The notes beneath the pieces were generated by a model, which saw nothing but the letters and a program-made list of their open reading frames with translations, was not told the origin of the DNA and did not search any database. 64,000 bases of DNA, taken from the NCBI GenBank assembly GCA_000004985.1, contig GG738847.1; one strand, written 5' to 3'. Shown piece by piece: positions 2,996 through 62,883 of the stretch. The translations under genes were made by a program, and so were the position numbers. Each line of letters opens with the position of its first letter. The stretch's first letter is position 1. This DNA is from Naegleria gruberi (taxonomy: Eukaryota).

Positions 2996-5014
2996 TTATT
3001 CCTGTTTTCTTTTCTTTTTTTCCTTCTTTTCCTTTTTATGCTTCTTTCTCTTCTTCCTTTCCTCATCATCTGAGGATGAGTCCAACATTTTGCGAATATC
3101 TGAAATTCTTGACTCTAATTGAGCAATATAACTTGTTGTCGAATCTCTTTTCATTGGATAAACATTAAAATCCAATTTCTTTTTCTCCTCTTTCTTTTCT
3201 ACAACTTCTACCTCTTTCTTTTCTTTCTTTTCCTTTGACTTCATGCTCTCTAGCACAGCCTTTCTCTTCTCAATTAGAGAATGAGACGACACCTCTCCTT
3301 TAGATTCCTTCATTTCTTTTACTATATCCTTGAGGGAATTTACGCTATCAAAAGAGAGAATATCTTCAGACTTTTCATTACTCTTTGTTTGTTGAGGCGT
3401 GTGAATTCTATTAGAAGGTACCACTTCGTCATCGTGTTCTATAATATTCCTCACTTTGGTCTCAAATACTTGTTTGAATAAATCAATAGAAGGTCTAGCT
3501 CCATCTTCCATCTTGTCTTGATTTTTCACAGATTGATCTGGATTTTGCTCCACAATGAAATCTTTTGCCAATACATGCGATTGCTTTTGTGTTGTTTCAG
3601 TTGTGGTATTTACAGGAATAGATATTGGATTACATCCAAAACGTTTGGAGAGTAATGGTTCTGGTCTCCAATCTGAGATAGTTCTAGACTTTTCTCGATT
3701 CACTCGAGTAGTACTACTTTTTGATGCCTCAGTACTACCATTGTCAGATGAGGAAACAAATCTATTAGACATAGATTTGGCTAAATGTTGTTGCATTTCT
3801 TTGGATTTCTCGCTTTGTCTTGAAGATTCTACCGACTTTTGATTGAGATTTGTAGATTCAAAAAGCTTCTTTCGTCTCTCTTCTGCAGCCATCAAGTGCA
3901 ATTGAATTTTGTGGTCTAATTTTTTGTATTCCTTCTTGATAGCTTCTGTATTAAAAATGTGATTTGGTACAAAATCCTCAGGAACCTTTGGAGGCAAGTA
4001 TTTGGTTTGATTGAGGAAAGGTTGTTTTGATTTAATGAAAATCAACTTCTCATCCCACGTATTTTCCTCACTCTCTTGGGTTGTTCTCAGATCTATATCA
4101 TAATTACTCATATCATCTTCTTGGTAATACTCTTCTTCTGTGGTATTCTTCTTATTATTATGTACAGGTTTTTGAATATTTAATATATCATTAAGGGTTG
4201 AATGTTTGTATCCAATACCACATTTATCTTCCTTAATAATAACAGTCGATAATTTAGAATCTGTGTGCAATTCCACAGAATCTGTCTTGCTATATGATTT
4301 GACTCCAATACCTTTCGAAGGAATCCATCCCATTTTCTTCAATAAGGAATATCCTATATTTGTTTCATTTGAATCATAACTCCTATCATTCAAACTAATC
4401 AATTTTTCAGAACTGCCGAATAATGCTTCCAAATGTCTTTGATCTGAAGAATTAATCTTTCCTCCAAATAAATCAGAAATTGGATCAGCAATTACCTTGT
4501 TTGTCACTTTCATAAATTTATCTGTTGCTTGAACCTGTTTCGAACCACTCAATCCAAAAATCTCTTTCATATCCTCTTCATCCATAAAATCAGTAATCTT
4601 CCTCTCTAATCTAAAATCATTAGATGGATTCCAACCCTCCTTTGATCCAACAGTGTTGAAATAACCAGCAGAATAACCACCTGTAAAGGCTCCATGAAAT
4701 CTTCTTCTTCCCTTTTCATCGGTTGCATATTGTTGATGTTCGGAAGTGTATCTTTCTTGATTATGGGCTTTTAATTCTCTTTCATTCTCTTCATCACCAT
4801 CAAAGATTGGTGTTCCGAATAGAGTTTGATTATTTCTTCTTCTATTATGTGATGAAGAAGAATTGATTTGAGAATGTCCTAACCCTGCCCTTGATTCATG
4901 ATGAGAAGAAAACCCACCATGATGATTATTACTACTGGTTCCTTGTTGATGTGCTCGATTATTCCGCTGCTGATATTGTTGATGATTATTGTGCTTACTA
5001 TGATGATTAAACAT
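2996..5014 (-). CDS. GPATCH1-like protein (DUF1604 N-domain plus G-patch), 672 aa with a K/E-rich tail.
   Basis: ATG at 5012-5014 (minus). The N-terminal motif FHGAFTGGYSAGYFNTVGSKEGW is the GPATCH1/DUF1604 signature. The G-patch is GYSLLKKMGWIPSKGIGVK. His/Asn/Gln-rich N-terminus and Lys/Glu-rich C-terminus. Convergent with the dynein gene, 52 bp between stops. Confidence 0.6.
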   Translation of the reverse strand: MFNHHSKHNNHQQYQQRNNRAHQQGTSSNNHHGGFSSHHESRAGLGHSQINSSSSHNRRRNNQTLFGTPIFDGDEENERELKAHNQERYTSEHQQYATDEKGRRRFHGAFTGGYSAGYFNTVGSKEGWNPSNDFRLERKITDFMDEEDMKEIFGLSGSKQVQATDKFMKVTNKVIADPISDLFGGKINSSDQRHLEALFGSSEKLISLNDRSYDSNETNIGYSLLKKMGWIPSKGIGVKSYSKTDSVELHTDSKLSTVIIKEDKCGIGYKHSTLNDILNIQKPVHNNKKNTTEEEYYQEDDMSNYDIDLRTTQESEENTWDEKLIFIKSKQPFLNQTKYLPPKVPEDFVPNHIFNTEAIKKEYKKLDHKIQLHLMAAEERRKKLFESTNLNQKSVESSRQSEKSKEMQQHLAKSMSNRFVSSSDNGSTEASKSSTTRVNREKSRTISDWRPEPLLSKRFGCNPISIPVNTTTETTQKQSHVLAKDFIVEQNPDQSVKNQDKMEDGARPSIDLFKQVFETKVRNIIEHDDEVVPSNRIHTPQQTKSNEKSEDILSFDSVNSLKDIVKEMKESKGEVSSHSLIEKRKAVLESMKSKEKKEKKEVEVVEKKEEKKKLDFNVYPMKRDSTTSYIAQLESRISDIRKMLDSSSDDEERKKRKKHKKEKKEKKKRKQE

Positions 5015-13372: not shown

Positions 13373-14233
13373 TTATGGTAAGGCATGGATGGATGAAGGT
13401 GGATTCTTCATTTTCTTACAAACTCTTCTTCTTGCATTAATGAAATAATTATTAACTTGAGCAACTGTGATGTTTGCTAATTTAGATAAATATTGTTTGT
13501 CGCTTTGATCTGGATATGGATTGTGCCAATTATCATACAACCACTGTTTTAGAATTAAATTTGCTGTTTCTGAAAGATATCTGGTTGACTTTTGTTTACA
13601 TATTTTCTTATTTCCGAAAGTGGTAATTCCCTTATTGTCAAAATGGTTGGTGTTGTAACGAGTATTTGTATTTTCAACCCTAATAGAGTTTGAAATTCTG
13701 TGATGTGTTGTAATTTGATTAGTAGTTGATTCGTTTCTCTCTCTTTGGTTTTCGTTGTGAATAGTTTGATCGTTGATGGAGAGTGATGTTATTTTATCTG
13801 GTATTGTATTGTCAACATTGATACTCTCTTCTTTACGAACAGTAACTTCAATCTCTCGCAATAATTCTTTAATTGAAGGAAGTTTCGATTGGTTAATATT
13901 TGGTAGATGTTGGTAGTGTTGTATTGAAGAAGGTTGGTTAATTATTTGTTGCTCGTGAGGAGGAGTGGAAAATTGTGTAGAATGAGCTGTCGAGTAAGAA
14001 TTAAAGGTTTGAAAGTTATCATGGTTGAGTAGTCTATTGTTTCCTTCAAAATATGTTTGATTACTGCCATATCCTGTATTCAAAGTGTAGGTGGGGTATT
14101 GTTTACTGTTTGAAGGAACACTTCTTGCTGAGATGGGAGTAGCATTGAGTTGACTAATATGCCAAGCTTTTGAAAATGTAGTATGGTCAAAGCATGCAGT
14201 TGAAAAGTTAGTGTTTTGATGTTGAGGTTTCAT
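13373..14233 (-). CDS. TALE-class homeobox transcription factor, 286 aa.
   Basis: C-terminal homeodomain with the three-residue loop insertion and YFINARRR recognition helix (LKQWLYDNWHNPYPDQSDKQYLSKLANITVAQVNNYFINARRR). The N-terminal two thirds is low-complexity and Asn/Gln/Thr-rich. Confidence 0.75.
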   Translation of the reverse strand: MKPQHQNTNFSTACFDHTTFSKAWHISQLNATPISARSVPSNSKQYPTYTLNTGYGSNQTYFEGNNRLLNHDNFQTFNSYSTAHSTQFSTPPHEQQIINQPSSIQHYQHLPNINQSKLPSIKELLREIEVTVRKEESINVDNTIPDKITSLSINDQTIHNENQRERNESTTNQITTHHRISNSIRVENTNTRYNTNHFDNKGITTFGNKKICKQKSTRYLSETANLILKQWLYDNWHNPYPDQSDKQYLSKLANITVAQVNNYFINARRRVCKKMKNPPSSIHALP

Positions 14234-39180: not shown

Positions 39181-41260
39181 TTAATAATAATCATGATAAT
39201 CTCTAATTTGACCATTCCAAAAAGAGCACAAATCTCTAAAATCCTCTTGAGTGGCAAACATCTGAGCTCCCCTAAATCCCTCGTTCGAATCAGTAGAATG
39301 AACAATAGTTACATTCGGTAAAATTTTAGAAACTTCTTCAGCCCATCCATTTTCTGATCCTACCAATATTACATTTTTTACCTGTTCAATAACATCCATC
39401 CTCTTGGCCCTCAATACTTCTTTTAATCCTTTTTTGAACTCCTTTTCTATTGTCCTGTTTGAATCCACTTCATAAATGTCTCCAGCAAATGAGAAGAAAT
39501 TCAAAACCACACTGATGGTAATTGTGTTTACATCCTTCTCTATTACTATACAATGACTAATACTGTGATAGTATGCTATCATAGTATGTCTTGAAAGTAA
39601 ACAAACTGCAGGAACTTGCGTTTTCAATACCAAATCAATAAAATTGCTCAATTTTTTCATTTTCAGATATTTTGGAGGGATTGAGATTAATAATGGATGG
39701 CTTGGTGTGAAATTAATTTCTTCACAAACTTTGGAGAAAAATGTTCCAATGTTCATGGCTGTTACACGATAATCTTCTGCAGTTAAATAATCAAATACAT
39801 TTCTCTGGTCAGAACCCCTTCTACCAAGCATGGCATCTGAATAGCTGTAAAAGTTAAAGCTATTAAGGTATTGAGATATTGAGAAATTTCAACTCGTATA
39901 ATACTTACTGGCCTCCTGTATATCTACCCACATAGGGCTCAGTCGTTTTTGGAGTTTCATCACTGAAAAATCCAAAAGTTGCAACCTCACTGGTTATATC
40001 AATACAGATAGGTTTAAAATTGCGTTCAGTGAAATTTCTAACTCTAGCAGCATGATACCAATCTGTGAGTGGTTCTTTTTCACATAATTTAAGATAGGTA
40101 TTTCCATTCCAATATTTCTTGTACACTGCTTTCCATAAAATGGGCGATCTTGCAAGATGATTCAAATATCTACTCAATTGCAAACCAACAGAACATATTT
40201 CACTCTCTGAAAGAAAAGTGAATATGTTTAAAATAATCTCCTCTGGTAGAACTGTCAGATTATCATTCTTGTCGTTTTCAACTGGACCTTCCAATATACA
40301 GTATTGCCTATTTAACAAATATTCAAAGGTTTTACCACTCTTCACAAGCAGCCTCTGCCCAGCAAAATACTTTTCTGAAGATCCATAAACATCCCCACTC
40401 TTTTCAAGAGTTTCACTTTCCTTAAAAGCTTGCCCAATTTGTTGGTAAGTTTCTGATTGTTCAAAATTGTTATCTCTTGGAATTGAATTATTATCCACTC
40501 TGAGATACATAATTTCAGTTCTTAAAATATACTTGATTCCACTAATTACAGAACATCCTTCATGATAAAAATCTTGATTAAATAGAGCCAATTTACCAAC
40601 TGAAGGTTTCAAAGTATGATGAAGGTTGAAAGTATCGTCGTTTGGATCAGAGAAGAATTTGGTTTCTCCACCATTGAAATCCTGATTCAAATAGATCAGT
40701 AATGTGTAAATACTTCTCTCATTTTCACTTCTTCTAAACTGACCGTCGGTATGAATTTTGAAATATTCTCCCTTTTCATACTTGCTAAATCTCATACATT
40801 CATTAACTCCACAAGCTACCCATCTTCCTCTGCTGTCCAACCCATACGGGGCAATTGATTTTCCAATCTGATCTAGATCAATCTTGTTCTTTAGTCTATT
40901 AAATATCAAATCGGCCAACTTGTTATCTGTAACCAGTTCTCTCATGGCATTTCTGTGTTCCTTTGGATATTCATCTTCAAGAGATTGAAAATTGGAACAC
41001 TTTTTAATCAAATCTCTGCATTCATCATCGGAAAAGAAATTCGGAATGACCATCAATCTATTCAATGAATCTTCATAGAAAGGACCGGAAATCTCTAAAG
41101 GCTTCAATTCAAATGACTGTCTATCGTAGGAAAACATTTGCCTGACTTTAATAGAATCATCCGGTTCAATCACTGAATATTTAGATTTAATTCGTTGTTG
41201 TTGGAGATGGTCATTGTTATCATTTCTGGAAGAACTTGAAGCACTGTGTTTATTACCCAT
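39181..41260 (-). CDS. Multidomain protein of ~673 aa: N-terminal MGNKHS (myristoylation consensus) - 2OG-Fe(II) prolyl-4-hydroxylase-like domain - F-box - uncharacterised C-terminal domain. 2 exons: 39909-41260 and 39181-39844, with a 64-nt GTAAGT…TTTTACAG intron.
   Basis: P4H-type motifs are HTDGQF…RSIYTLLIYLNQDFNGGETKFF…FYHEG (HxD…H facial triad). The F-box is LPEEIILNIFTFLSESEICSVGLQLSRYLNHLARSPILWK. The junction …GRYTGG(H)|YSDAMLGRRG… is in phase, with the split codon CA|C. Confidence 0.6.
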
Positions 41261-54954: not shown

Positions 54955-55758
54955 CTATTGTTCTTGCCATCTCTTGAAGACATCAAAGAGAAGGTTTTGA
55001 ATCACAACGTTTTCCAGCTCGTCAAACAAGTCAATTTCACCCAATAATCGTTGAATATTGAATGAATGAACTTGTAGCTCTTCCTTTGACATGTTCAATT
55101 GTTTGTTACTACCATTCTTAATAAACTGTGAATAAATCTCAGTTTGAAGCTTGACTCTGTCTTGAATCTTTTTCAAGCTCTTATAATAACTGACATCTTC
55201 AAGGAAAAGTATCCATTCGTTCATTTCTTTGGCACAGAAATCTTTAAAGTTGTTTCTCTTGTCAATGTTGTGGAAAATTTCTTTGAAGTTGATTTTGTCT
55301 TGCAACTTGTAATACATGACTTCCTTTTCTTTAAGTTCTTTAAGCATATTCTTAATTGTAAGATGATGAATCAGAATGACAATAACAGTAGACATTTCAG
55401 ATTCAGCTTTTACAACAGACGTAAGGTCATACGTACACTTGCTGAATGACATTGAAATTCTAACTTTCATTTCTTGACCGAGTTTGTTGATAGCATTTAT
55501 CTCTCTTCCAGTGATACAAGTGTCATCATGGAGAAGCACAGCTGAACCTCTAGAGTCAGCCAATTCCTTTTGAATATCCAAAGTAGGAAGAATGGATGTA
55601 ATGTCAACCATTCCACCTCTATGCGTCAGTATCGTTGAAACCAAAAGTCTTTTGGAAGGCATAGTTTGAAGAATCAACATAGATAGGTTACAATTTGCGA
55701 AGTCTATAACAGCAATTAATTTCTTTACTAACTGGAATACAGCCATGATTGAAGCCAT
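54955..55758 (-). CDS. RGS (regulator of G-protein signalling) domain protein, ~267 aa.
   Basis: C-terminal RGS box: …FKDFCAKEMNEWILFLEDVSYYK…IYSQFIKNGSNKQLNMSKEE…LFDELENVVIQNLLFDVFKRWQ, matching RGS consensus positions (EFsxENLxFW…IYxxFI…xxVNxd…LFxxAQxxIyxLMxxDsyxRF). ATG at 55756-55758. Confidence 0.6.
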   Translation of the reverse strand: MASIMAVFQLVKKLIAVIDFANCNLSMLILQTMPSKRLLVSTILTHRGGMVDITSILPTLDIQKELADSRGSAVLLHDDTCITGREINAINKLGQEMKVRISMSFSKCTYDLTSVVKAESEMSTVIVILIHHLTIKNMLKELKEKEVMYYKLQDKINFKEIFHNIDKRNNFKDFCAKEMNEWILFLEDVSYYKSLKKIQDRVKLQTEIYSQFIKNGSNKQLNMSKEELQVHSFNIQRLLGEIDLFDELENVVIQNLLFDVFKRWQEQ

Positions 55759-55830
55759 CACTGTTCTTTCTAATTTGAGTGAAGATTCTTACCATGTATA
55801 TTGTTGATTATTGTAACTATATGTTTATTG

Positions 55831-58170: not shown

Positions 58171-60288
58171 TTAATTCAATTTTCTTACAATTAAGGGCCA
58201 ACCAACTTGTATCACTGCATACTTATGAATGCTTTTTGATTTGTCAGCATCATTTTCATATTGAGCATATTGTTTGACTTGAGAAATTGCAGAATTCAAA
58301 ATTGATCTGGCTACAACTTTCTCTTTGGCATGAGTAAGTACTTCCATTTCTAATAATTCTTCATCAGTTTGTTTAGATAAATCTTTAAATATATTTTTAA
58401 AAATTTGCGGATTCCAATATTCAATATTGGAATATTTTGTTAAAGAATTTGGTCTAATACGTTTGAATTCAATTATTAATACTTTTTTAGAAGTTCTTAT
58501 CACAAGATCAGCACGTTTGATGTATTCCTTATTGTTAGAATTCTTTACATGATATTCCTTTTCAGCTTGAATTTTCAATTCTTTGTTTCTAAATAAACAA
58601 TATGCTCTTAATGCAGATTCAATACTTGCTTGTAAACCTCCTTCAGACATTGAATTGTCATAAATAGTTTCTTGTTTTTCTAAAATATTATTGAGTAACA
58701 TTCTCAAATTATCTTGGGTAGGTTCATTAATAAAAGTTGATACATCATTTTCATGTAGAGATATAAGTCTACGTAACTGCTCTAAATATTGGACTTTTGC
58801 AATTTCATTTGGAATTAACAATTGTTTTGGGTTCATCTGTTTTGATGATTCTTTTGTGAAGGTAACCATACCGTGATAATACATGAATGATAAAGCATTA
58901 TCACGAATCTTTTGTATATCTTCTTCATTGGATGGTGGATCAATAATCTCTCTTAATTTCAGTGAAGGATAAATTGACTCTGTTACTTCTACATAATCTT
59001 TTGAAAGTAATTGTTGAATAATATCATTCGATACAACTGATGATGCCAAAGTTGCAAAAACGTTCTCACTGATCATTGTGTTGGTATCTGTTAATATTGA
59101 TAATGGAATTTCTTGTTTTTGTAGAACAGCATTTCTGAAAGGTTCATCTTTTACAAGTTTGTTCAAAAAGAACATTGAAAGAGTTGTGTTGAATAGAGCA
59201 TGTTTTGAACCAGGAAAATGATAACCTTTATAATACTTTTTCATGGTTGAAATGGTAATATCTTGATCATTTCCAATAATATCAATGTTATTTAATGCCA
59301 TTCTCAGATCATTTTCTGTAAAACCAACCAAACCACCAAATATCTTATCAAAGGAAATATTACTGGAAACATTATATCCAGATGCATCTGCAAGAGCAAT
59401 AGGAGTGATACCAGTGATGATACTACGAAAATCTTGTAAACCAACACCGGAAGACTCTTTCAATCTTTCAAAGAAAGAACGAATTGGTGAAGATGTTGGA
59501 TCTCCTCTCTTTCCTTCAACTATTAATTGATATTTTTCAGGATTTTCAAACATTAATTTGTTTGCAAATCTATCATATTCATCAATTAATATCATTAATT
59601 TGGCTCCTTTTTCTATTAATATAGCCACCAGAGTTGCTAAAGTATCGAACGAATTTTTGTGATTAATATCCATCTCTTTAGTTAATTCATAGTAACGTAA
59701 AAAACCATAAATGGATGTGTTTACTTTCTCATGAAGCCGTTGATTAATATCTTCCGTTGTACCATCAACTTGAATAGAAAAATCTAACTTTAAAACATGA
59801 TATTGATTCTTTCCAGGTGTCCAATTATTTTCATCACCAATCCATAAACCAGAAAATAATTCATCAAATTCATCTTTCTTGTTAATATCATAATATGATG
59901 AAAGCATTGATAATAATAGTGATTTTCCCCATCTCGGAGGACGAACAAAAAATAATTGTTTTCCACTTTCTTCTAATAGAGGAATTAAATTAGTTTTATC
60001 AACATAAAATTGTTTACTTCTTCTGATGGAAGCAAAATCTGATTCACCATATGGAAAATATGGCACCAACAAATTTCCGTCACCAATATTTTTAAATTTA
60101 ATATTTTCAACATTATTTGTTGTTGGTTTTAATGTATTTGAATAGTTTTTAGTTTGATTCACTCTATTAATTGTAAACTTGTTAATATCATTAGTTAAAT
60201 TATTAATTTTTAATATTGATCTATTGATTTTGGGTGATGCAGTAAATAACTGCAATCTATTGATTTTACGAAGGAAGGTATGTTTCAT
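58171..60288 (-). CDS. Predicted AAA-ATPase-like (PF09820-type N-domain) plus PD-(D/E)XK nuclease-like (PDDEXK_9-type C-domain) protein, 705 aa in a single exon.
   Basis: The N-domain signature is FYVDKTNLIPLLEESGKQLFFVRPPRWGKSLLLSMLSSYYD…HVLKLDFS… (consensus …RPRRFGKSL…). The C-terminal …NKEYIKRADLVIRTSKKVLIIEFKRIR… is the PD-(D/E)XK core (D…(I/V)EFK). It is preceded by an ~100-aa Asn/Lys-rich low-complexity leader. It is flanked by the two largest ORF-free intervals in the window (~57.5-58.2 kb and 60.3-61.6 kb). Confidence 0.75.
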   Translation of the reverse strand: MKHTFLRKINRLQLFTASPKINRSILKINNLTNDINKFTINRVNQTKNYSNTLKPTTNNVENIKFKNIGDGNLLVPYFPYGESDFASIRRSKQFYVDKTNLIPLLEESGKQLFFVRPPRWGKSLLLSMLSSYYDINKKDEFDELFSGLWIGDENNWTPGKNQYHVLKLDFSIQVDGTTEDINQRLHEKVNTSIYGFLRYYELTKEMDINHKNSFDTLATLVAILIEKGAKLMILIDEYDRFANKLMFENPEKYQLIVEGKRGDPTSSPIRSFFERLKESSGVGLQDFRSIITGITPIALADASGYNVSSNISFDKIFGGLVGFTENDLRMALNNIDIIGNDQDITISTMKKYYKGYHFPGSKHALFNTTLSMFFLNKLVKDEPFRNAVLQKQEIPLSILTDTNTMISENVFATLASSVVSNDIIQQLLSKDYVEVTESIYPSLKLREIIDPPSNEEDIQKIRDNALSFMYYHGMVTFTKESSKQMNPKQLLIPNEIAKVQYLEQLRRLISLHENDVSTFINEPTQDNLRMLLNNILEKQETIYDNSMSEGGLQASIESALRAYCLFRNKELKIQAEKEYHVKNSNNKEYIKRADLVIRTSKKVLIIEFKRIRPNSLTKYSNIEYWNPQIFKNIFKDLSKQTDEELLEMEVLTHAKEKVVARSILNSAISQVKQYAQYENDADKSKSIHKYAVIQVGWPLIVRKLN

Positions 60289-61631
60289 ATTTTTGATGAT
60301 TTTTTTTTTAAGCTATTTGATGGCACCGTTGTGATGATTGATGATTGTGATGGTGTGGAAGAGGAAATCCTACAAAGTTACATTGTTGGTTGGGTTCTAA
60401 TGTTTTGCTTGTGATTCTGAAATTGTCTCATTGCCGGTTTTGAGATGAGTAATGTTTGGTAACGTAATTGTGTTTGGACTTCAAGAAGATAAACAACCAG
60501 GTATGAAAGTAAACTTATCTCTGTAAATTTAAGGTAACAAATGATCATTTGATAATGTGAACTTGGACATCTTCATTTCTTAAATCAAGAATGTAGTTTT
60601 AAAGTATGACAACCACAGAAAACTAATTTTTGCTCTAGTGCCATATTGTTATTGGTTACCATAAACAACCACTCATGGTTTCATGCTTGTTTGTTTAGTT
60701 AGTTGGAAGTTCATGCAGTGATTGAACATTAATGGCATGGTGAGGGTTGTTAACCACACTTTTATGTATAGTTCCCAAAACTTCCATCATATTGACATTA
60801 TCCAATGGACCAATGTGTAATAGGAGGAAGCTTGCTAGTTAATTCAAATGGTTTATTTAAATTTAAGACTTGAAATAAATCTATCCCTCACATAACTTCG
60901 GCAGAAATCTTGTCTGACTCATCAGAACATCCTAATTCAGGAACTTCGCTTACATCCTCATCAAAAGACGTATCCATGATGTCAAAATCCTGAAGTGAAA
61001 TAAATCTCAATGAATCTAGATTTTTCAAAAATTAATGGGAGACGCAACTCAAGACGCAGTCTGACTAGGCTCCAGCGTGTTGTTTTATTAAAGTCCTACA
61101 GATATTAAATCAACAATGGAATCTCTCAAGTTATTCTCAGAACTTGTAAATAGAAATGCTTTGGGATCCCATTCTTTTTGATCTTCACACTAAAAAATTA
61201 GTAATGGAAGAGAAACTCAAATTGTATGAGATTCAAATATCTACCAAATGCCAGTGCAAAGAAAATAATTGAGGAAATATAAATCACCACTACATTTCGC
61301 AAAATTAGTAAAATTGAAAAGAATGTTGTTTTATCAAATATTAAAGATTGTTCATGTAAAATTTACATTCATATCATTGTCCATTCACAATCGCCATGGA
61401 AACAATGTGGACAACTATCATTTTTGACACAAGAGACTTCAGTCCATCCTTCTTCACACATGCAAGTCGATTGTTCCGTTAAAACAAGTTTCTTTCATTG
61501 TTCAACATGATAACAGTTCTTGTTGTACAGTCAAAAACAAGATACTCAACCATAATTTGATGTCAATTAACATTGACCTTGCAAGGCCAATTGAAAAGTC
61601 TTGATATGGAAAACATCAAGTGAATCCTACT

Positions 61632-62729
61632 CTACCACCATTTTTTCTTTCTCTGTTTCTTGATCAATGCCTTGGTTGACTTTGAATCTAGCTCCACAAC
61701 TTGATGTAATAATTTCAAATCGTTTTCATTTGAAAATCGTACCATTCGCTCACTTTCTTCAAATAATAAATTAACACATTCTCCACTTTTTGCACTCGTT
61801 ACAATAATTTTAGTATTTAACAAATGATAGGCCTCAATTAGTGACTCAATCACCTTTCTAAATTCTTCAATTTTCCTCATTCTTTCCTTGTAATCTTGCA
61901 ATAAATCAACCTTATTGAGTACAAATATTATTGGTATGTCATTGATTGATTGATAATTGGAACCAATTGAGTTCAAGAAAGATACACATTCTTCTACTGT
62001 TTTTATATTTTCTAAAGAGGAAACCAAAATGAAGCAATCAGTATTTCTATGATGATACTGACCTCTCAGTGGTCTGAATTCTTCCTGTCCAGCTGTCAAT
62101 TGTCGTGAAATATTTCTTTTTTTGAATTAATTGCTTACCTGTATCGAGAATATCAAATAAAATTGGAATTCCATCAACATTATATTGTTTAGAATAATTA
62201 TCTTCTATCGTTGGATCATTATTCTCAAATGCATAATTATTTGTCACAAATCGAAGTGTCAAAGATGATTTTCCTTCATTATTTTGTAAAATTTCAAACA
62301 CAGAAATATTTCATACTCACCAACATACTCCAATCCATTCAATGTCACATTCAAAGTTTTAATTTCCTTCTTATTTTTTGGAATTATTGAGATTCGGTTC
62401 AAATATCTGATTAATAAAATCTTTCGTTTCAATTCATTCTTTTCAATCATTTTAATTTTTAATTCATCAAATTGATTCAAATAAATTTGGCGAATATTAA
62501 ATTCAGTGATGAATAATTTCCAATAATAATTGTTGAAATAATTTTTCATTTCTTCCATTTCGTTTAATTTGTTAGAAAGTGAGTTGAATTTGCAAATATT
62601 GTACAGAGATAGCTTTCTAATATTCGAATCTAAACTATCCAAATGATCGGAATCAACAACCAAGAATGATAAGATGAGAAAAAGCAACTCTTGTGGAAGT
62701 TGTGAAAACTTGGTTTTGTGTGGGCGCAT
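61632..62729 (-). CDS. Ras-family small GTPase with an ~140-aa F-box-like N-terminal extension, ~331 aa in 3 exons: 62331-62729, 62139-62274, 61632-62092. Introns are 56 and 46 nt.
   Basis: Exon junctions are GTGAGT…AATGAAG and GTAAGC…TGACAG, in phase. The G-domain has a P-loop NGLEYVG|GKSSL (G-x5-GKS, one residue longer than canonical), switch I DPTIEDNY, G3 DTAGQEEF (split across an intron), G4 NKVD and G5 SAK. The C-terminus is polybasic KKQRKKKWW without CAAX. The N-terminus is LPQELLFLILSFLVVDSDHL (F-box-like). Confidence 0.7.
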
Positions 62730-62809: not shown

Positions 62810-62883
62810 TACAGCGAGCGGGGCTTGAACCCGCGACCTTAAGCGTGTTAGGCTTACGATCTAACCAACTGATCTATCGCTGC
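62810..62883 (-). tRNA. tRNA-Val (anticodon AAC), 74 nt, no intron, CCA not encoded.
   Basis: Reverse complement GCAGCGATAGATCAGTTGGTTAGATCGTAAGCCTAACACGCTTAAGGTCGCGGGTTCAAGCCCCGCTCGCTGTA folds as a canonical cloverleaf. The 7-bp acceptor stem has G1·U72. D-stem is GATC/GATC, anticodon stem TAAGC/GCTTA, loop CUAACAC (U33, AAC, A37), T-stem GCGGG/CCCGC, T-loop TTCAAGC, discriminator A. Confidence 0.9.

What the first reader, a model, noticed from the sequence alone, without database searches (positions are those of the whole stretch)
61632..62729. Ras-like GTPase with an F-box-like N-terminal extension, an elongated Walker-A motif and no CAAX
The G-domain motifs are otherwise classical Ras/Rap (DPTIEDNY, DTAGQEEF, NKVD, SAK). 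The P-loop reads GLEYVGGKS, with five residues instead of four between the glycines, and is split by an intron. The C-terminus is polybasic KKQRKKKWW with no prenylation box. About 140 residues beginning LPQELLFLILSFLVVDSDHL precede the G-domain. This could be a regulatory pseudo-GTPase or an SCF-coupled GTPase.
Basis: partly seen in the sequence, partly recalled or inferred. Interest (0 to 1): 0.5.

Follow-up and report, generated by a model that had tools for sequence, protein, structure and literature searches.

The report
Unannotated Naegleria Ras with F-box-like head
This is an intact, apparently unannotated three-exon gene of the amoeba Naegleria gruberi for a Ras-type GTPase that carries a divergent F-box-like N-terminal extension; it belongs to a large amoeba-specific Ras subfamily, and the reported "elongated" nucleotide-binding loop is a splice-junction counting error.

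Summary
The gene is real. It lies on the minus strand with exons 62729-62321, 62273-62139 and 62092-61632, and encodes 334 aa. The window is Naegleria gruberi.

The headline oddity is not real. The only GT-AG splice that keeps the P-loop gives GLEYVGKS, which has canonical GxxxxGKS spacing. What is unusual is the content of the loop: Ras positions G12 and G13 are Glu and Tyr.

All other G motifs are intact, and no CaaX box is reachable by any splice.

The 125-residue N-terminal extension belongs to the same gene. It is colinear with at least 20 N. gruberi and Willaertia magna Ras paralogues, and both intron positions are shared.

Its first helix (LPQELLFLILSFL) matches F-box profiles (hhalign 93-95%). 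One homologue passes Pfam's F-box-like cut-off, but the window protein does not, and structure prediction was uninformative.

F-box-GTPase fusions are already published for Naegleria Rab, Rho, Ran and Galpha. The Ras clade was not labelled that way, and this paralogue appears unannotated.

Verdict: a new member of a known kind, of modest interest. SCF coupling and GTP-locking are inferred, not shown.

The parts
62321..62729 (-). Exon 1 (409 nt). It runs from ATG at 62729 and encodes residues 1-136 plus the first base of the Gly137 codon. This covers the N-terminal extension, strand beta-1 and the first half of the P-loop (GLEYV-G|).
   Evidence: The start is supported by alignment from residue 1 with N. 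gruberi XP_002669123.1.
62274..62320 (-). Intron 1, 47 nt, GTGAGT...GAAG, phase 1 inside the codon of P-loop Gly137 (Ras G15).
   Evidence: Several family fragments end at or read through this position (GQGGVG, GDEAVG, GEGGVGELILF...), which indicates a conserved intron position.
62139..62273 (-). Exon 2 (135 nt). It encodes GKSSLTLRFV...DPTIEDNY...DILDT and the first base of Ala182: the rest of the P-loop, switch I and strands beta-2/beta-3.
62093..62138 (-). Intron 2, 46 nt, GTAAGC...GACAG, phase 1 inside the Ala182 codon of DTAGQ.
   Evidence: Family fragment P0137 reads through at the same point (DILDTGKFLK...).
61632..62092 (-). Exon 3 (461 nt including stop TAG at 61632-61634). It encodes switch II, NKVD, SAK, a family-specific C-terminal helical extension and the polybasic tail.
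62514..62708 (-). F-box-like region, residues 8-72. Helix 1 is FSQLPQELLFLILSFL (residues 8-23). A roughly 10-residue insertion follows, then ...LSLYNICKFNSLSNKL...NYYWKLF.
   Evidence: hhalign of the family against F-box alignments gave probability 95.5% (E 1.5e-8) and 93% (E 3e-7) over helix 1; a reversed control gave 0.2%. Pfam F-box-like is sub-threshold here but above threshold in homologue P0139. The family profile hits the F-box domains of plant FBD/LRR proteins.
62361..62513 (-). Conserved helical linker, residues 73-123 (...QFDELKIKMIEKNELKRKILLIRYL...), between the F-box-like region and the G domain.
   Evidence: AF2 model of the N-terminus alone: pLDDT 81-91 for residues 51-110, all helical. 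The region is conserved in the family consensus MIxKxELKRKxLL.
62266..62336 (-). P-loop G1 motif G132-L-E-Y-V-G-K-S139, interrupted by intron 1. Spacing is canonical. Ras G12 is Glu134 and G13 is Tyr135.
62076..62145 (-). G3/switch II motif D180-T-A-G-Q-E-E-F187, interrupted by intron 2. The catalytic Gln (Ras Q61, here Q184) is retained.
61905..61916 (-). G4 motif N241-K-V-D244.
61788..61796 (-). G5 motif S281-A-K283.
61635..61661 (-). C-terminal tail K326-KQRKKKWW334, polybasic plus two Trp, with no Cys. It takes the place of the CaaX box (CSVM, CSIM, CIIM, CIVM, CSLM...) found in almost all full-length relatives.

Best explanation
Shown:
- The locus is an intact three-exon gene of Naegleria gruberi encoding a 334-aa protein.
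- It is a divergent paralogue (at most 41% identity to any relative) of a Ras subfamily seen so far only in the heteroloboseans Naegleria and Willaertia.
- All members share one layout: an N-terminal F-box-like helix motif (LPxEIxxHILSF), a conserved helical linker, a Ras G domain, a helical C-terminal extension and, usually, a farnesylation-type CaaX box.
- The P-loop has normal spacing.

Inferred mechanism:
- The G domain still binds guanine nucleotide, because G1-G5 are intact.
- Glu and Tyr at Ras positions 12 and 13 should block intrinsic and GAP-assisted hydrolysis. The protein would then sit mostly in the GTP form, like Rnd or RhoH-type atypical GTPases.
- The N-terminal F-box-like module would dock onto Skp1 and so onto Cul1-Rbx1. 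The GTP-state Ras domain would then either present its effector-like partners for ubiquitination or be turned over itself. Control would be by abundance rather than by a GTP/GDP cycle.
- This paralogue has lost the lipid anchor. The KKQRKKKWW tail could give weaker, electrostatic and aromatic membrane association.
For: Gene model:
- One stop-free 1005-nt CDS with canonical GT-AG introns.

Taxon:
- A neighbouring 451-aa ORF is 100% identical to an N. gruberi protein.

Same-gene status of the N-terminus:
- BLASTP of residues 1-126 against the N-terminus of XP_002669123.1 gives 65 bits, E 2e-19, colinear from residue 1.
- An exhaustive profile search of 1.84 billion proteins gave 17 hits. Of these, 14 are family members with the same order of parts.
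- Both intron positions recur in family fragments.

F-box likeness:
- hhalign gives 95.5% and 93% against two independent F-box alignments, and 0.2% for a reversed control.
- The only well-annotated non-family hits of the profile are F-box domains of multi-F-box plant proteins.
- F-box-clan models are the top weak Pfam hit in 7 of 10 family N-termini. Willaertia P0139 passes the curated cut-off with 25.4 against 24.3 bits, covering profile positions 3-36 of 47.

GTPase state:
- GxxxxGK[ST] and NKxD (one TKSD) are kept in all 16 family members aligned. Positions 12, 13 and 61 are replaced in every N. gruberi paralogue examined.
- The AF2 G domain has pLDDT above 90, including the P-loop.

Precedent:
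- F-box fusions to Rab, Rho, Ran and Galpha domains are reported as frequent in Naegleria and read as 'GTPase-dependent ubiquitination' (PMC8296547 Supplementary Material 4).
- TbFRP is a FYVE-F-box-GTPase protein in Euglenozoa (PMC3593210).
Against: - The window protein scores only 12.6-14.8 bits on Pfam F-box-like against a cut-off of 24.3, and only over profile positions 1-16.
- The hhalign score comes almost entirely from helix 1. Extending the alignment to the rest of the F-box adds nothing.
- A family profile search of PDB sequences gave no significant hit.
- The authors who curated Naegleria GTPases did not label any member of this Ras clade as F-box.
- There is no transcript evidence, no Skp1-binding evidence and no nucleotide-binding or hydrolysis data.
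- The gene is absent from public protein sets. Several relatives are flagged as putative pseudogenes, so this copy may not be expressed.
Confidence: 0.55

Rival explanations
1. This is an ordinary, if divergent, lineage-specific Ras paralogue. Its N-terminal extension is a family-specific helical domain that only keeps, or converged on, an LPxEI-type helix and does not bind Skp1. Under this reading there is no SCF link. The extension could serve dimerisation, localisation or autoinhibition.
For: - Only helix 1 scores against F-box profiles.
- The window protein is below Pfam threshold.
- A variable insertion of 10-25 residues separates helix 1 from the rest.
- Structural searches found no F-box fold.
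- Curators left the clade unlabelled.
Against: - The motif is the hallmark first helix of the F-box, and its proline is invariant in all 13 aligned family N-termini.
- Homologue P0139 matches Pfam F-box-like through helices 1-3 above the curated threshold.
- The family profile finds true F-box domains among 1.84 billion proteins.
- Naegleria demonstrably fuses F-boxes to four other GTPase families.
Confidence: 0.28
2. This is a decaying or silent gene copy. It would be a recently disabled member of a birth-and-death family that has lost its CaaX anchor and acquired disruptive P-loop residues, and that is no longer expressed or functional.
For: - It is not in the NCBI, UniRef or EukProt protein sets, nor in the re-annotation table.
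- Relatives are flagged as putative pseudogenes, and the literature notes dynamic birth-and-death of divergent Naegleria GTPases.
- It is the only full-length member seen with no Cys near the C-terminus.
- Codon-usage contrast between frames is weak.
Against: - All 334 codons are open across three exons in DNA of 29% G+C. By my own estimate, chance stop-free length this great has probability of about 3e-13.
- Both introns keep consensus GT-AG ends.
- All five G motifs are intact.
- G12, G13 and Q61 replacements are the rule in annotated, intact paralogues too.
Confidence: 0.12
3. One reading: a pseudo-GTPase with a five-residue P-loop spacer (GLEYVGGKS) that cannot bind nucleotide normally.
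Against: No GT-AG splice produces that peptide. The only splice that keeps the P-loop gives GLEYVGKS. Relatives have the same intron position and canonical spacing.
Confidence: 0.02
4. These are two separate genes: an N-terminal F-box-like ORF and a downstream Ras gene.
For: Read without splicing, exon 1 forms a free-standing 156-aa ORF.
Against: - Exon 1 itself contains strand beta-1 and half of the P-loop.
- There is no Met or start upstream of the G domain in exon 2.
- The same fusion is annotated as one protein in N. gruberi (XP_002669123.1, XP_002668509.1 and others) and in Willaertia magna.
Confidence: 0.02

Closest known systems
N. gruberi 'ras family small GTPase' paralogues XP_002669123.1, XP_002669149.1, XP_002668509.1, XP_002677816.1, XP_002673059.1 and others, and Willaertia magna KAL9647512, KAL9647557 and KAL9647516
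   Same: - Same colinear layout: LPxEI N-terminus, FWWK/ELKRK helical linker, Ras G domain and helical C-terminal extension.
- Same two intron positions.
- Same tendency to replace catalytic residues.
   Different: - At most 41% identical to any of them.
- Unique P-loop content (Glu134, Tyr135) while Q61 is retained.
- No CaaX; the tail is KKKWW instead.
- Not present in public protein sets or in Table S8 of PMC8296547.
Naegleria F-box-GTPase fusions (Rab-like, Rac/Rho, Ran, Galpha) described by Herman et al. 2021, BMC Biol 19:142, Supplementary Material 4 and Table S8
   Same: - An N-terminal F-box-type helix sits upstream of a Ras-superfamily G domain in the same organism.
- The family N-terminus aligns to their F-box helix 1 with hhalign probability 93%.
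- The proposed logic, GTPase-dependent ubiquitination, is the same.
   Different: - The G domain here is Ras family, which that paper does not list among F-box partners, and no Ras row carries the F-box label.
- The F-box here is more divergent, with an insertion after helix 1, and is sub-threshold in Pfam.
TbFRP (FYVE-F-box-GTPase) of Euglenozoa, PMC3593210
   Same: It is a Discoba protein that combines an F-box with a C-terminal small GTPase domain. Rapid turnover or a link to SCF was proposed for it.
   Different: [quoted passage not shown]
- Its authors found no Naegleria orthologue.
- No FYVE hit was found here.
- It is not an orthologue of the window gene.
RhoBTB (Cul3-linked) and Rab40 (SOCS box, Cul5-linked) atypical GTPases. 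This comparison rests on my own knowledge and was not tested here.
   Same: A small-GTPase domain is fused to a cullin-RING adaptor module. RhoBTB also has a hydrolysis-deficient G domain.
   Different: The adaptor module differs (BTB or SOCS box rather than F-box), as do its position and the GTPase family. There is no homology outside the G domain.
Rnd and RhoH-type constitutively GTP-bound GTPases, and Rit/Rin (CaaX-less, polybasic plus Trp tail). This comparison rests on my own knowledge.
   Same: They carry substitutions at the Ras G12 position while nucleotide-binding motifs stay intact. Rit and Rin bind membranes without prenylation through a basic and aromatic tail.
   Different: They are different subfamilies. 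The resemblance is functional analogy only, and nothing about it was measured here.

Membership tests
Ras family small GTPase (Pfam PF00071) | Profile score above the curated cut-off | tested here: met
   94 bits against a cut-off of 21.6, residues 131-297. Best PDB sequence hits are K-Ras and H-Ras, E about 1e-21.
Ras family small GTPase (Pfam PF00071) | G1 P-loop GxxxxGK[ST] with four residues between the glycines | tested here: met
   GLEYVGKS after splicing. No alternative GT-AG splice gives a longer loop.
Ras family small GTPase (Pfam PF00071) | G2 Thr35, G3 DxxG(Q), G4 NKxD and G5 SAK | tested here: met
   DPT158IED, D180TAGQ184, N241KVD and S281AK283, aligned to H-Ras.
Ras family small GTPase (Pfam PF00071) | Catalytically competent Gly12 and Gly13 | tested here: not met
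   These positions are Glu134 and Tyr135. The consequence for hydrolysis is inferred from Ras biochemistry and was not measured.
Ras family small GTPase (Pfam PF00071) | C-terminal CaaX prenylation box (typical of the family, not strictly defining) | tested here: not met
   The protein ends ...KKQRKKKWW followed by a stop. No Cys is present, and no spliced alternative ends in CaaX.
F-box domain (Pfam clan: PF00646 F-box, PF12937 F-box-like) | Profile score above the curated cut-off | tested here: not met
   The window protein scores 12.6 bits as the whole protein and 14.8 bits as the N-terminus alone, against 24.3, and only over profile positions 1-16. Homologue P0139 scores 25.4 bits over positions 3-36.
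F-box domain (Pfam clan: PF00646 F-box, PF12937 F-box-like) | Helix-1 signature L-P-x-E-[IL]-x-x-x-I-[LF]-x-x-L | tested here: met
   L11-P-Q-E-L-L-F-L-I-L-S-F-L23. Pro is invariant in 13 family N-termini. hhalign gives 95.5% and 93% against two F-box alignments, and 0.2% for the reversed control.
F-box domain (Pfam clan: PF00646 F-box, PF12937 F-box-like) | Three-helix F-box fold | tested here: inconclusive
F-box domain (Pfam clan: PF00646 F-box, PF12937 F-box-like) | Binding to Skp1 and assembly into SCF | not testable with these tools
   This needs a complex prediction with N. gruberi Skp1 or a binding assay.
Heterolobosean N-extended Ras clade (XP_002669123.1-like) | Colinear homology of the whole N-terminal extension as well as the G domain | tested here: met
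   N-terminus alone: 65 bits, E 2e-19, 37% identity over 116 residues. The family profile recovers 14 members.
Heterolobosean N-extended Ras clade (XP_002669123.1-like) | Shared intron positions (phase 1 in P-loop Gly15 and phase 1 in Ala59 of DTAG) | tested here: met
   This is inferred from family fragments that stop at or read through exactly these points: P0131, P0133, P0135, P0138, P0140 and P0137. Genomic DNA of the paralogues could not be fetched.
Published Naegleria F-box-GTPase set (PMC8296547 Table S8) | Listed in the curated table with 'F-box' as an additional domain | tested here: not met
   Peptides of this protein are absent from all supplementary files. No Ras row carries the F-box label.
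TbFRP family (Euglenozoa) | N-terminal FYVE domain and a Rab-like G domain | tested here: not met
   There is no FYVE hit, and the G domain is Ras-like. The TbFRP authors report no Naegleria orthologue.
Nucleotide-binding but hydrolysis-deficient 'pseudoGTPase' class (Rnd/RhoH-like) | Intact binding motifs with substituted catalytic residues; measured lack of GTPase activity | tested here: inconclusive
   The sequence criterion is met (Glu134 and Tyr135 with G1-G5 intact). The activity criterion cannot be tested here.

The most novel reading that the evidence does not exclude
The whole N-extended Ras clade of Naegleria and Willaertia (at least 20 genes in N. gruberi, this one included) would be a family of SCF substrate receptors. 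In them, a GTP-locked Ras domain replaces the usual WD40 or LRR module as the substrate-recognition unit. Ras-effector-type binding would then be converted directly into ubiquitination. This would add Ras as a fifth GTPase family to the F-box fusions already noted in Naegleria.
Probability: 0.25. Interest if true: 0.6.

Novelty: new member of a known kind. Interest (0 to 1): 0.33.

Why it matters
The main result is corrective. The feature that made this finding look exceptional, a Walker A loop with an extra residue, is an artefact of counting a glycine codon that an intron splits.

What remains is of moderate value:
- It appears to be an unannotated, intact gene in a reference protist genome.
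- There is evidence that a large Naegleria/Willaertia Ras clade, catalogued so far as plain 'Ras', carries a divergent F-box-like head. That would extend the known F-box-GTPase theme in Naegleria from Rab, Rho, Ran and Galpha to Ras.
- The clade conserves nucleotide-binding motifs while freely replacing the oncogenic-hotspot positions 12, 13 and 61. It is therefore a natural collection of putatively GTP-locked Ras domains.

If Skp1 binding were shown, these proteins would be a simple system for studying ubiquitin ligases gated by GTPase state.

Tried and rejected
- Exact-sequence look-ups of the window ORFs and of the N. gruberi and Willaertia homologues, to obtain genomic context or transcripts, found nothing on record. 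Paralogue gene structures and expression could therefore not be inspected directly.
- A word-indexed search with the N-terminus alone found nothing. The exhaustive profile search was needed instead.
- Profile searches of PDB sequences with 4-sequence and 13-sequence N-terminal alignments gave no significant hits. Three of the nine weak hits (E 0.7-1.7) were the F-box regions of AnkB, TIR1 and FBXO42.
- A search for a hidden CaaX through alternative 3' splicing or frameshift remnants found none.
- A codon-adaptation test for coding strand and frame discriminated poorly in this AT-rich gene.
- Rejected: two separate genes, an elongated P-loop, and orthology to TbFRP. Reasons are given in the rival explanations and the membership tests.
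Full report
**1. What is in the sequence**

Read on the minus strand, 61632-62729 holds a gene of three exons: 62729-62321, 62273-62139 and 62092-61632. The two introns are short and AT-rich, 47 nt (GTGAGT...AG) and 46 nt (GTAAGC...AG). Splicing gives a 1005-nt stop-free CDS of 334 codons.

The ATG at 62729 is the first start codon after an in-frame stop. A tRNA-Val(AAC) gene at 62810-62883 on the same strand leaves only about 80 nt upstream. The closest paralogue also aligns from residue 1. The start is therefore well placed.

**2. The Walker A claim**

Exon 1 ends ...GTT G and exon 2 begins GA AAA TCA. The intron thus splits the glycine codon G|GA, and the loop reads G132-L-E-Y-V-G-K-S139. 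That is exactly GxxxxGK[ST].

I enumerated every GT...AG pair around the junction that keeps the frame and introduces no stop. There are six. Five delete the Lys-Ser and helix alpha-1, and none gives GLEYVGGKS.

Intron 2 is exactly as stated.

**3. The G domain**

Pfam Ras scores 94 bits against a cut-off of 21.6. The best solved-structure sequence matches are K-Ras and H-Ras (E about 1e-21, about 37-40% identity).

Aligned to H-Ras, the following are all present:
- Thr35 (T158)
- DTAGQ (D180 to Q184)
- NKVD (241-244)
- SAK (281-283)

AF2 models the domain at pLDDT above 90, including the P-loop.

The real peculiarity is content, not length: Ras Gly12 and Gly13 are Glu134 and Tyr135. From established Ras biochemistry (my own knowledge), any side chain at position 12 other than Pro impairs intrinsic and GAP-stimulated hydrolysis. 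The inference, not a measurement, is a nucleotide-binding but slowly hydrolysing protein that is largely GTP-bound.

**4. The C-terminus**

The protein ends KKQRKKKWW. No GT-AG splice from the last 70 nt ends in C-x-x-x, and the three downstream frames hold no CaaX remnant. 'No CaaX' is confirmed.

**5. Where the window comes from**

A neighbouring 451-aa ORF (39905-41260, minus strand) is 100% identical over its full length to an N. gruberi protein on a 941,567-bp contig. Orthologues in N. fowleri, N. lovaniensis and Willaertia are about 28-41% identical. The rest of the window holds ordinary eukaryotic genes: dynein heavy chain, an RNA polymerase largest subunit, aconitase and PEX11. The window is Naegleria gruberi.

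**6. Is the gene known?**

A search of 5.8 billion protein clusters, which include the NCBI, UniRef and EukProt N. gruberi proteomes, found nothing better than 38% identity. Exact look-ups of the 334-aa product, of the exon-1 ORF and of an internal-Met model all failed.

Peptide strings from the protein occur nowhere in the supplementary files of the manual re-annotation of Naegleria Ras-superfamily genes (Herman et al. 2021, PMC8296547). As far as these sources go, the gene is unannotated.

**7. The family**

The best hits are N. gruberi XP_002669149.1 and its cluster mate XP_002669123.1 (343 aa), and Willaertia magna proteins.

The N-terminal 126 residues alone align colinearly to XP_002669123.1 at 65 bits (E 2e-19). 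A profile of three N-termini was searched exhaustively against 1.84 billion representatives and returned 17 proteins at E below 1e-3. Fourteen of these are family members from N. gruberi, W. magna and unnamed environmental or Logan contigs. Table S8 of PMC8296547 contains many more N. gruberi 'Ras' rows with the same LPxEI...FWWK...ELKRK head, so the clade has at least 20 members in this species.

Many database fragments stop at, or read through...GxGGVG, and one does so at ...DILDTG. These are the two intron positions of the window gene. This supports both the gene model and common descent. It also rules out the two-gene reading, as does the fact that exon 1 itself encodes strand beta-1 and half of the P-loop.

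**8. Is the head an F-box?**

For:
- A 13-sequence alignment of family N-termini, compared by hhalign with an F-box alignment, gives probability 95.5% and E 1.5e-8. The other three I wrote from memory.
- Against an independent alignment of 13 Naegleria Rab and Rac F-boxes labelled by Herman et al., it gives 93% and E 3e-7. The reversed-sequence control gives 0.2%.
- Two of the three non-family hits of the exhaustive profile search are plant FBD/LRR proteins. They are hit four times each, and Pfam confirms that each holds four F-box domains. In one, our match at 816-874 starts where Pfam F-box-like matches at 816-849.
- F-box-clan models (F-box-like, F-box, PRANC, F-box_4, F-box-like_2) are the top weak hit in 7 of 10 family N-termini.
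- The Willaertia member P0139 exceeds Pfam's curated threshold with 25.4 against 24.3 bits, covering profile positions 3-36 of 47.

Against:
- The window protein scores only 12.6-14.8 bits, over profile positions 1-16.
- The hhalign score comes essentially from helix 1. Forcing a global alignment adds nothing.
- A variable insertion follows helix 1.
- PDB profile searches are not significant, although 3 of 9 weak hits are the F-box regions of AnkB, TIR1 and FBXO42.

My reading is that this is a divergent F-box-like module, with probability about 0.65-0.7. Homology is supported transitively, but function is untested.

Residues 51-110 form a confidently predicted helical region (pLDDT 81-91) conserved across the family. 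By position it resembles the helical linkers that hold the substrate-binding domain in Fbxw7- and beta-TrCP-type F-box proteins. That comparison rests on my own knowledge and is an analogy only.

**9. A family-level pattern**

I aligned 16 members to H-Ras.
- GxxxxGK[ST] is kept in all of them, and NKxD in all but one, which has TKSD.
- Positions 12, 13 and 61 are free to vary. Examples are GKGGVGKS with DSA-EHE, DTAGPEE (Q61P) in several members, GSERVGKS, GDEAVGKS, GYKKVGKS and the window's GLEYVGKS.
- Only two Willaertia proteins keep G12, G13 and Q61 together.
- Almost all full-length members end in CaaX with X = M, L, C, N or H. The window gene does not.

This pattern suggests a clade that binds nucleotide but has largely given up regulated hydrolysis. 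The window gene would be a variant that has also dropped the lipid anchor.

**10. Mechanism proposed**

Shown: the gene structure, the motifs, family membership and the helix-1 similarity to the F-box.

Inferred:
- The F-box-like head docks Skp1 and hence Cul1-Rbx1.
- The GTP-state Ras domain, whose switch I is Ras-like (DPTIEDNY), recruits effector-type partners for ubiquitination, or else is itself turned over. Activity would then be set by abundance.
- The basic and Trp-containing tail provides weak, reversible membrane binding.

The authors of PMC8296547 drew the same general conclusion, 'GTPase-dependent ubiquitination', for F-box fusions to Rab, Rho, Ran and Galpha. TbFRP in Euglenozoa is a further F-box-GTPase precedent but not an orthologue.

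**11. Novelty and score**

F-box-GTPase fusions in Naegleria are published, and this Ras clade is catalogued, though as plain 'Ras'. The new items are an apparently unannotated paralogue and evidence that the clade's head is F-box-like. The feature that drove the original interest is an artefact.

I rate it a new member of a known kind, interest about 0.33. The boldest reading still open is that the clade consists of SCF receptors with a GTP-locked Ras domain as the recognition module. I give that a probability of about 0.25.

Noticed in passing
window 39905-41260 (-): A 451-aa ORF fuses a 2OG-Fe(II) oxygenase (prolyl-4-hydroxylase-like, PF13640) to a C-terminal, Pfam-significant F-box-like domain (residues 337-381, E 4.9e-9). 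It is 100% identical to N. gruberi 'P4Hc domain-containing protein'. Relatives in N. fowleri, N. lovaniensis and Willaertia are 705-744 aa with extra C-terminal sequence; the N. lovaniensis one has an actin-family Pfam hit. This hydroxylase-F-box fusion is intriguing because Skp1 prolyl hydroxylation is known in other protists (my own knowledge).
   Followed up: partly
window 62810-62883 (-): A tRNA-Val(AAC) gene lies on the same strand only about 80 nt upstream of the GTPase start codon (ARAGORN; Rfam 66.9 bits). The promoter region of the GTPase gene must therefore overlap or abut the tRNA gene.
   Followed up: partly
window 60289-61631: About 1.3 kb between the GTPase stop codon and the next long ORF has no ORF above about 55 aa in any frame, which is unusual for this gene-dense window. 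It includes a short Cys-rich, EGF-like ORF at 61369-61461 (-). It could be a small multi-exon gene, a decayed gene or a spacer.
   Followed up: partly
window 58171-60288 (-): A 705-aa ORF carries a 'Predicted AAA-ATPase' domain (PF09820, E 2.4e-41). By my own recollection, which I did not check, this family is mostly seen in prokaryotes. No exact copy is on record in the contig index.
   Followed up: no
window 54955-55761 (-): An ORF with an RGS domain (PF00615, E 2e-10) lies a few kb from the Ras gene. This fits the very large G-protein signalling repertoire of Naegleria.
   Followed up: no
Family proteins P0131, P0133, P0135, P0138, P0140 and P0137 (database fragments): Many database 'proteins' of this family are exon-1-only calls that end or run on at the P-loop intron, or at the DTAG intron. 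The family is therefore systematically mis-modelled in automated gene calls. Table S8 of PMC8296547 likewise needed manual correction for most members.
   Followed up: partly
Willaertia magna contig of 422,509 bp (KAL9647512/13, KAL9647516, KAL9647557): At least three family members (locus tags ABK040_006872, _006875 and _006913) lie on one contig, which suggests local tandem expansion. Two of them are the only members seen with fully canonical G12, G13 and Q61.
   Followed up: no
window 13373-14233 (-) and 2996-5014 (-): A TALE-class homeobox (Homeobox_KN) ORF and a DUF1604 plus G-patch ORF. These are ordinary nuclear genes, noted only as context.
   Followed up: no
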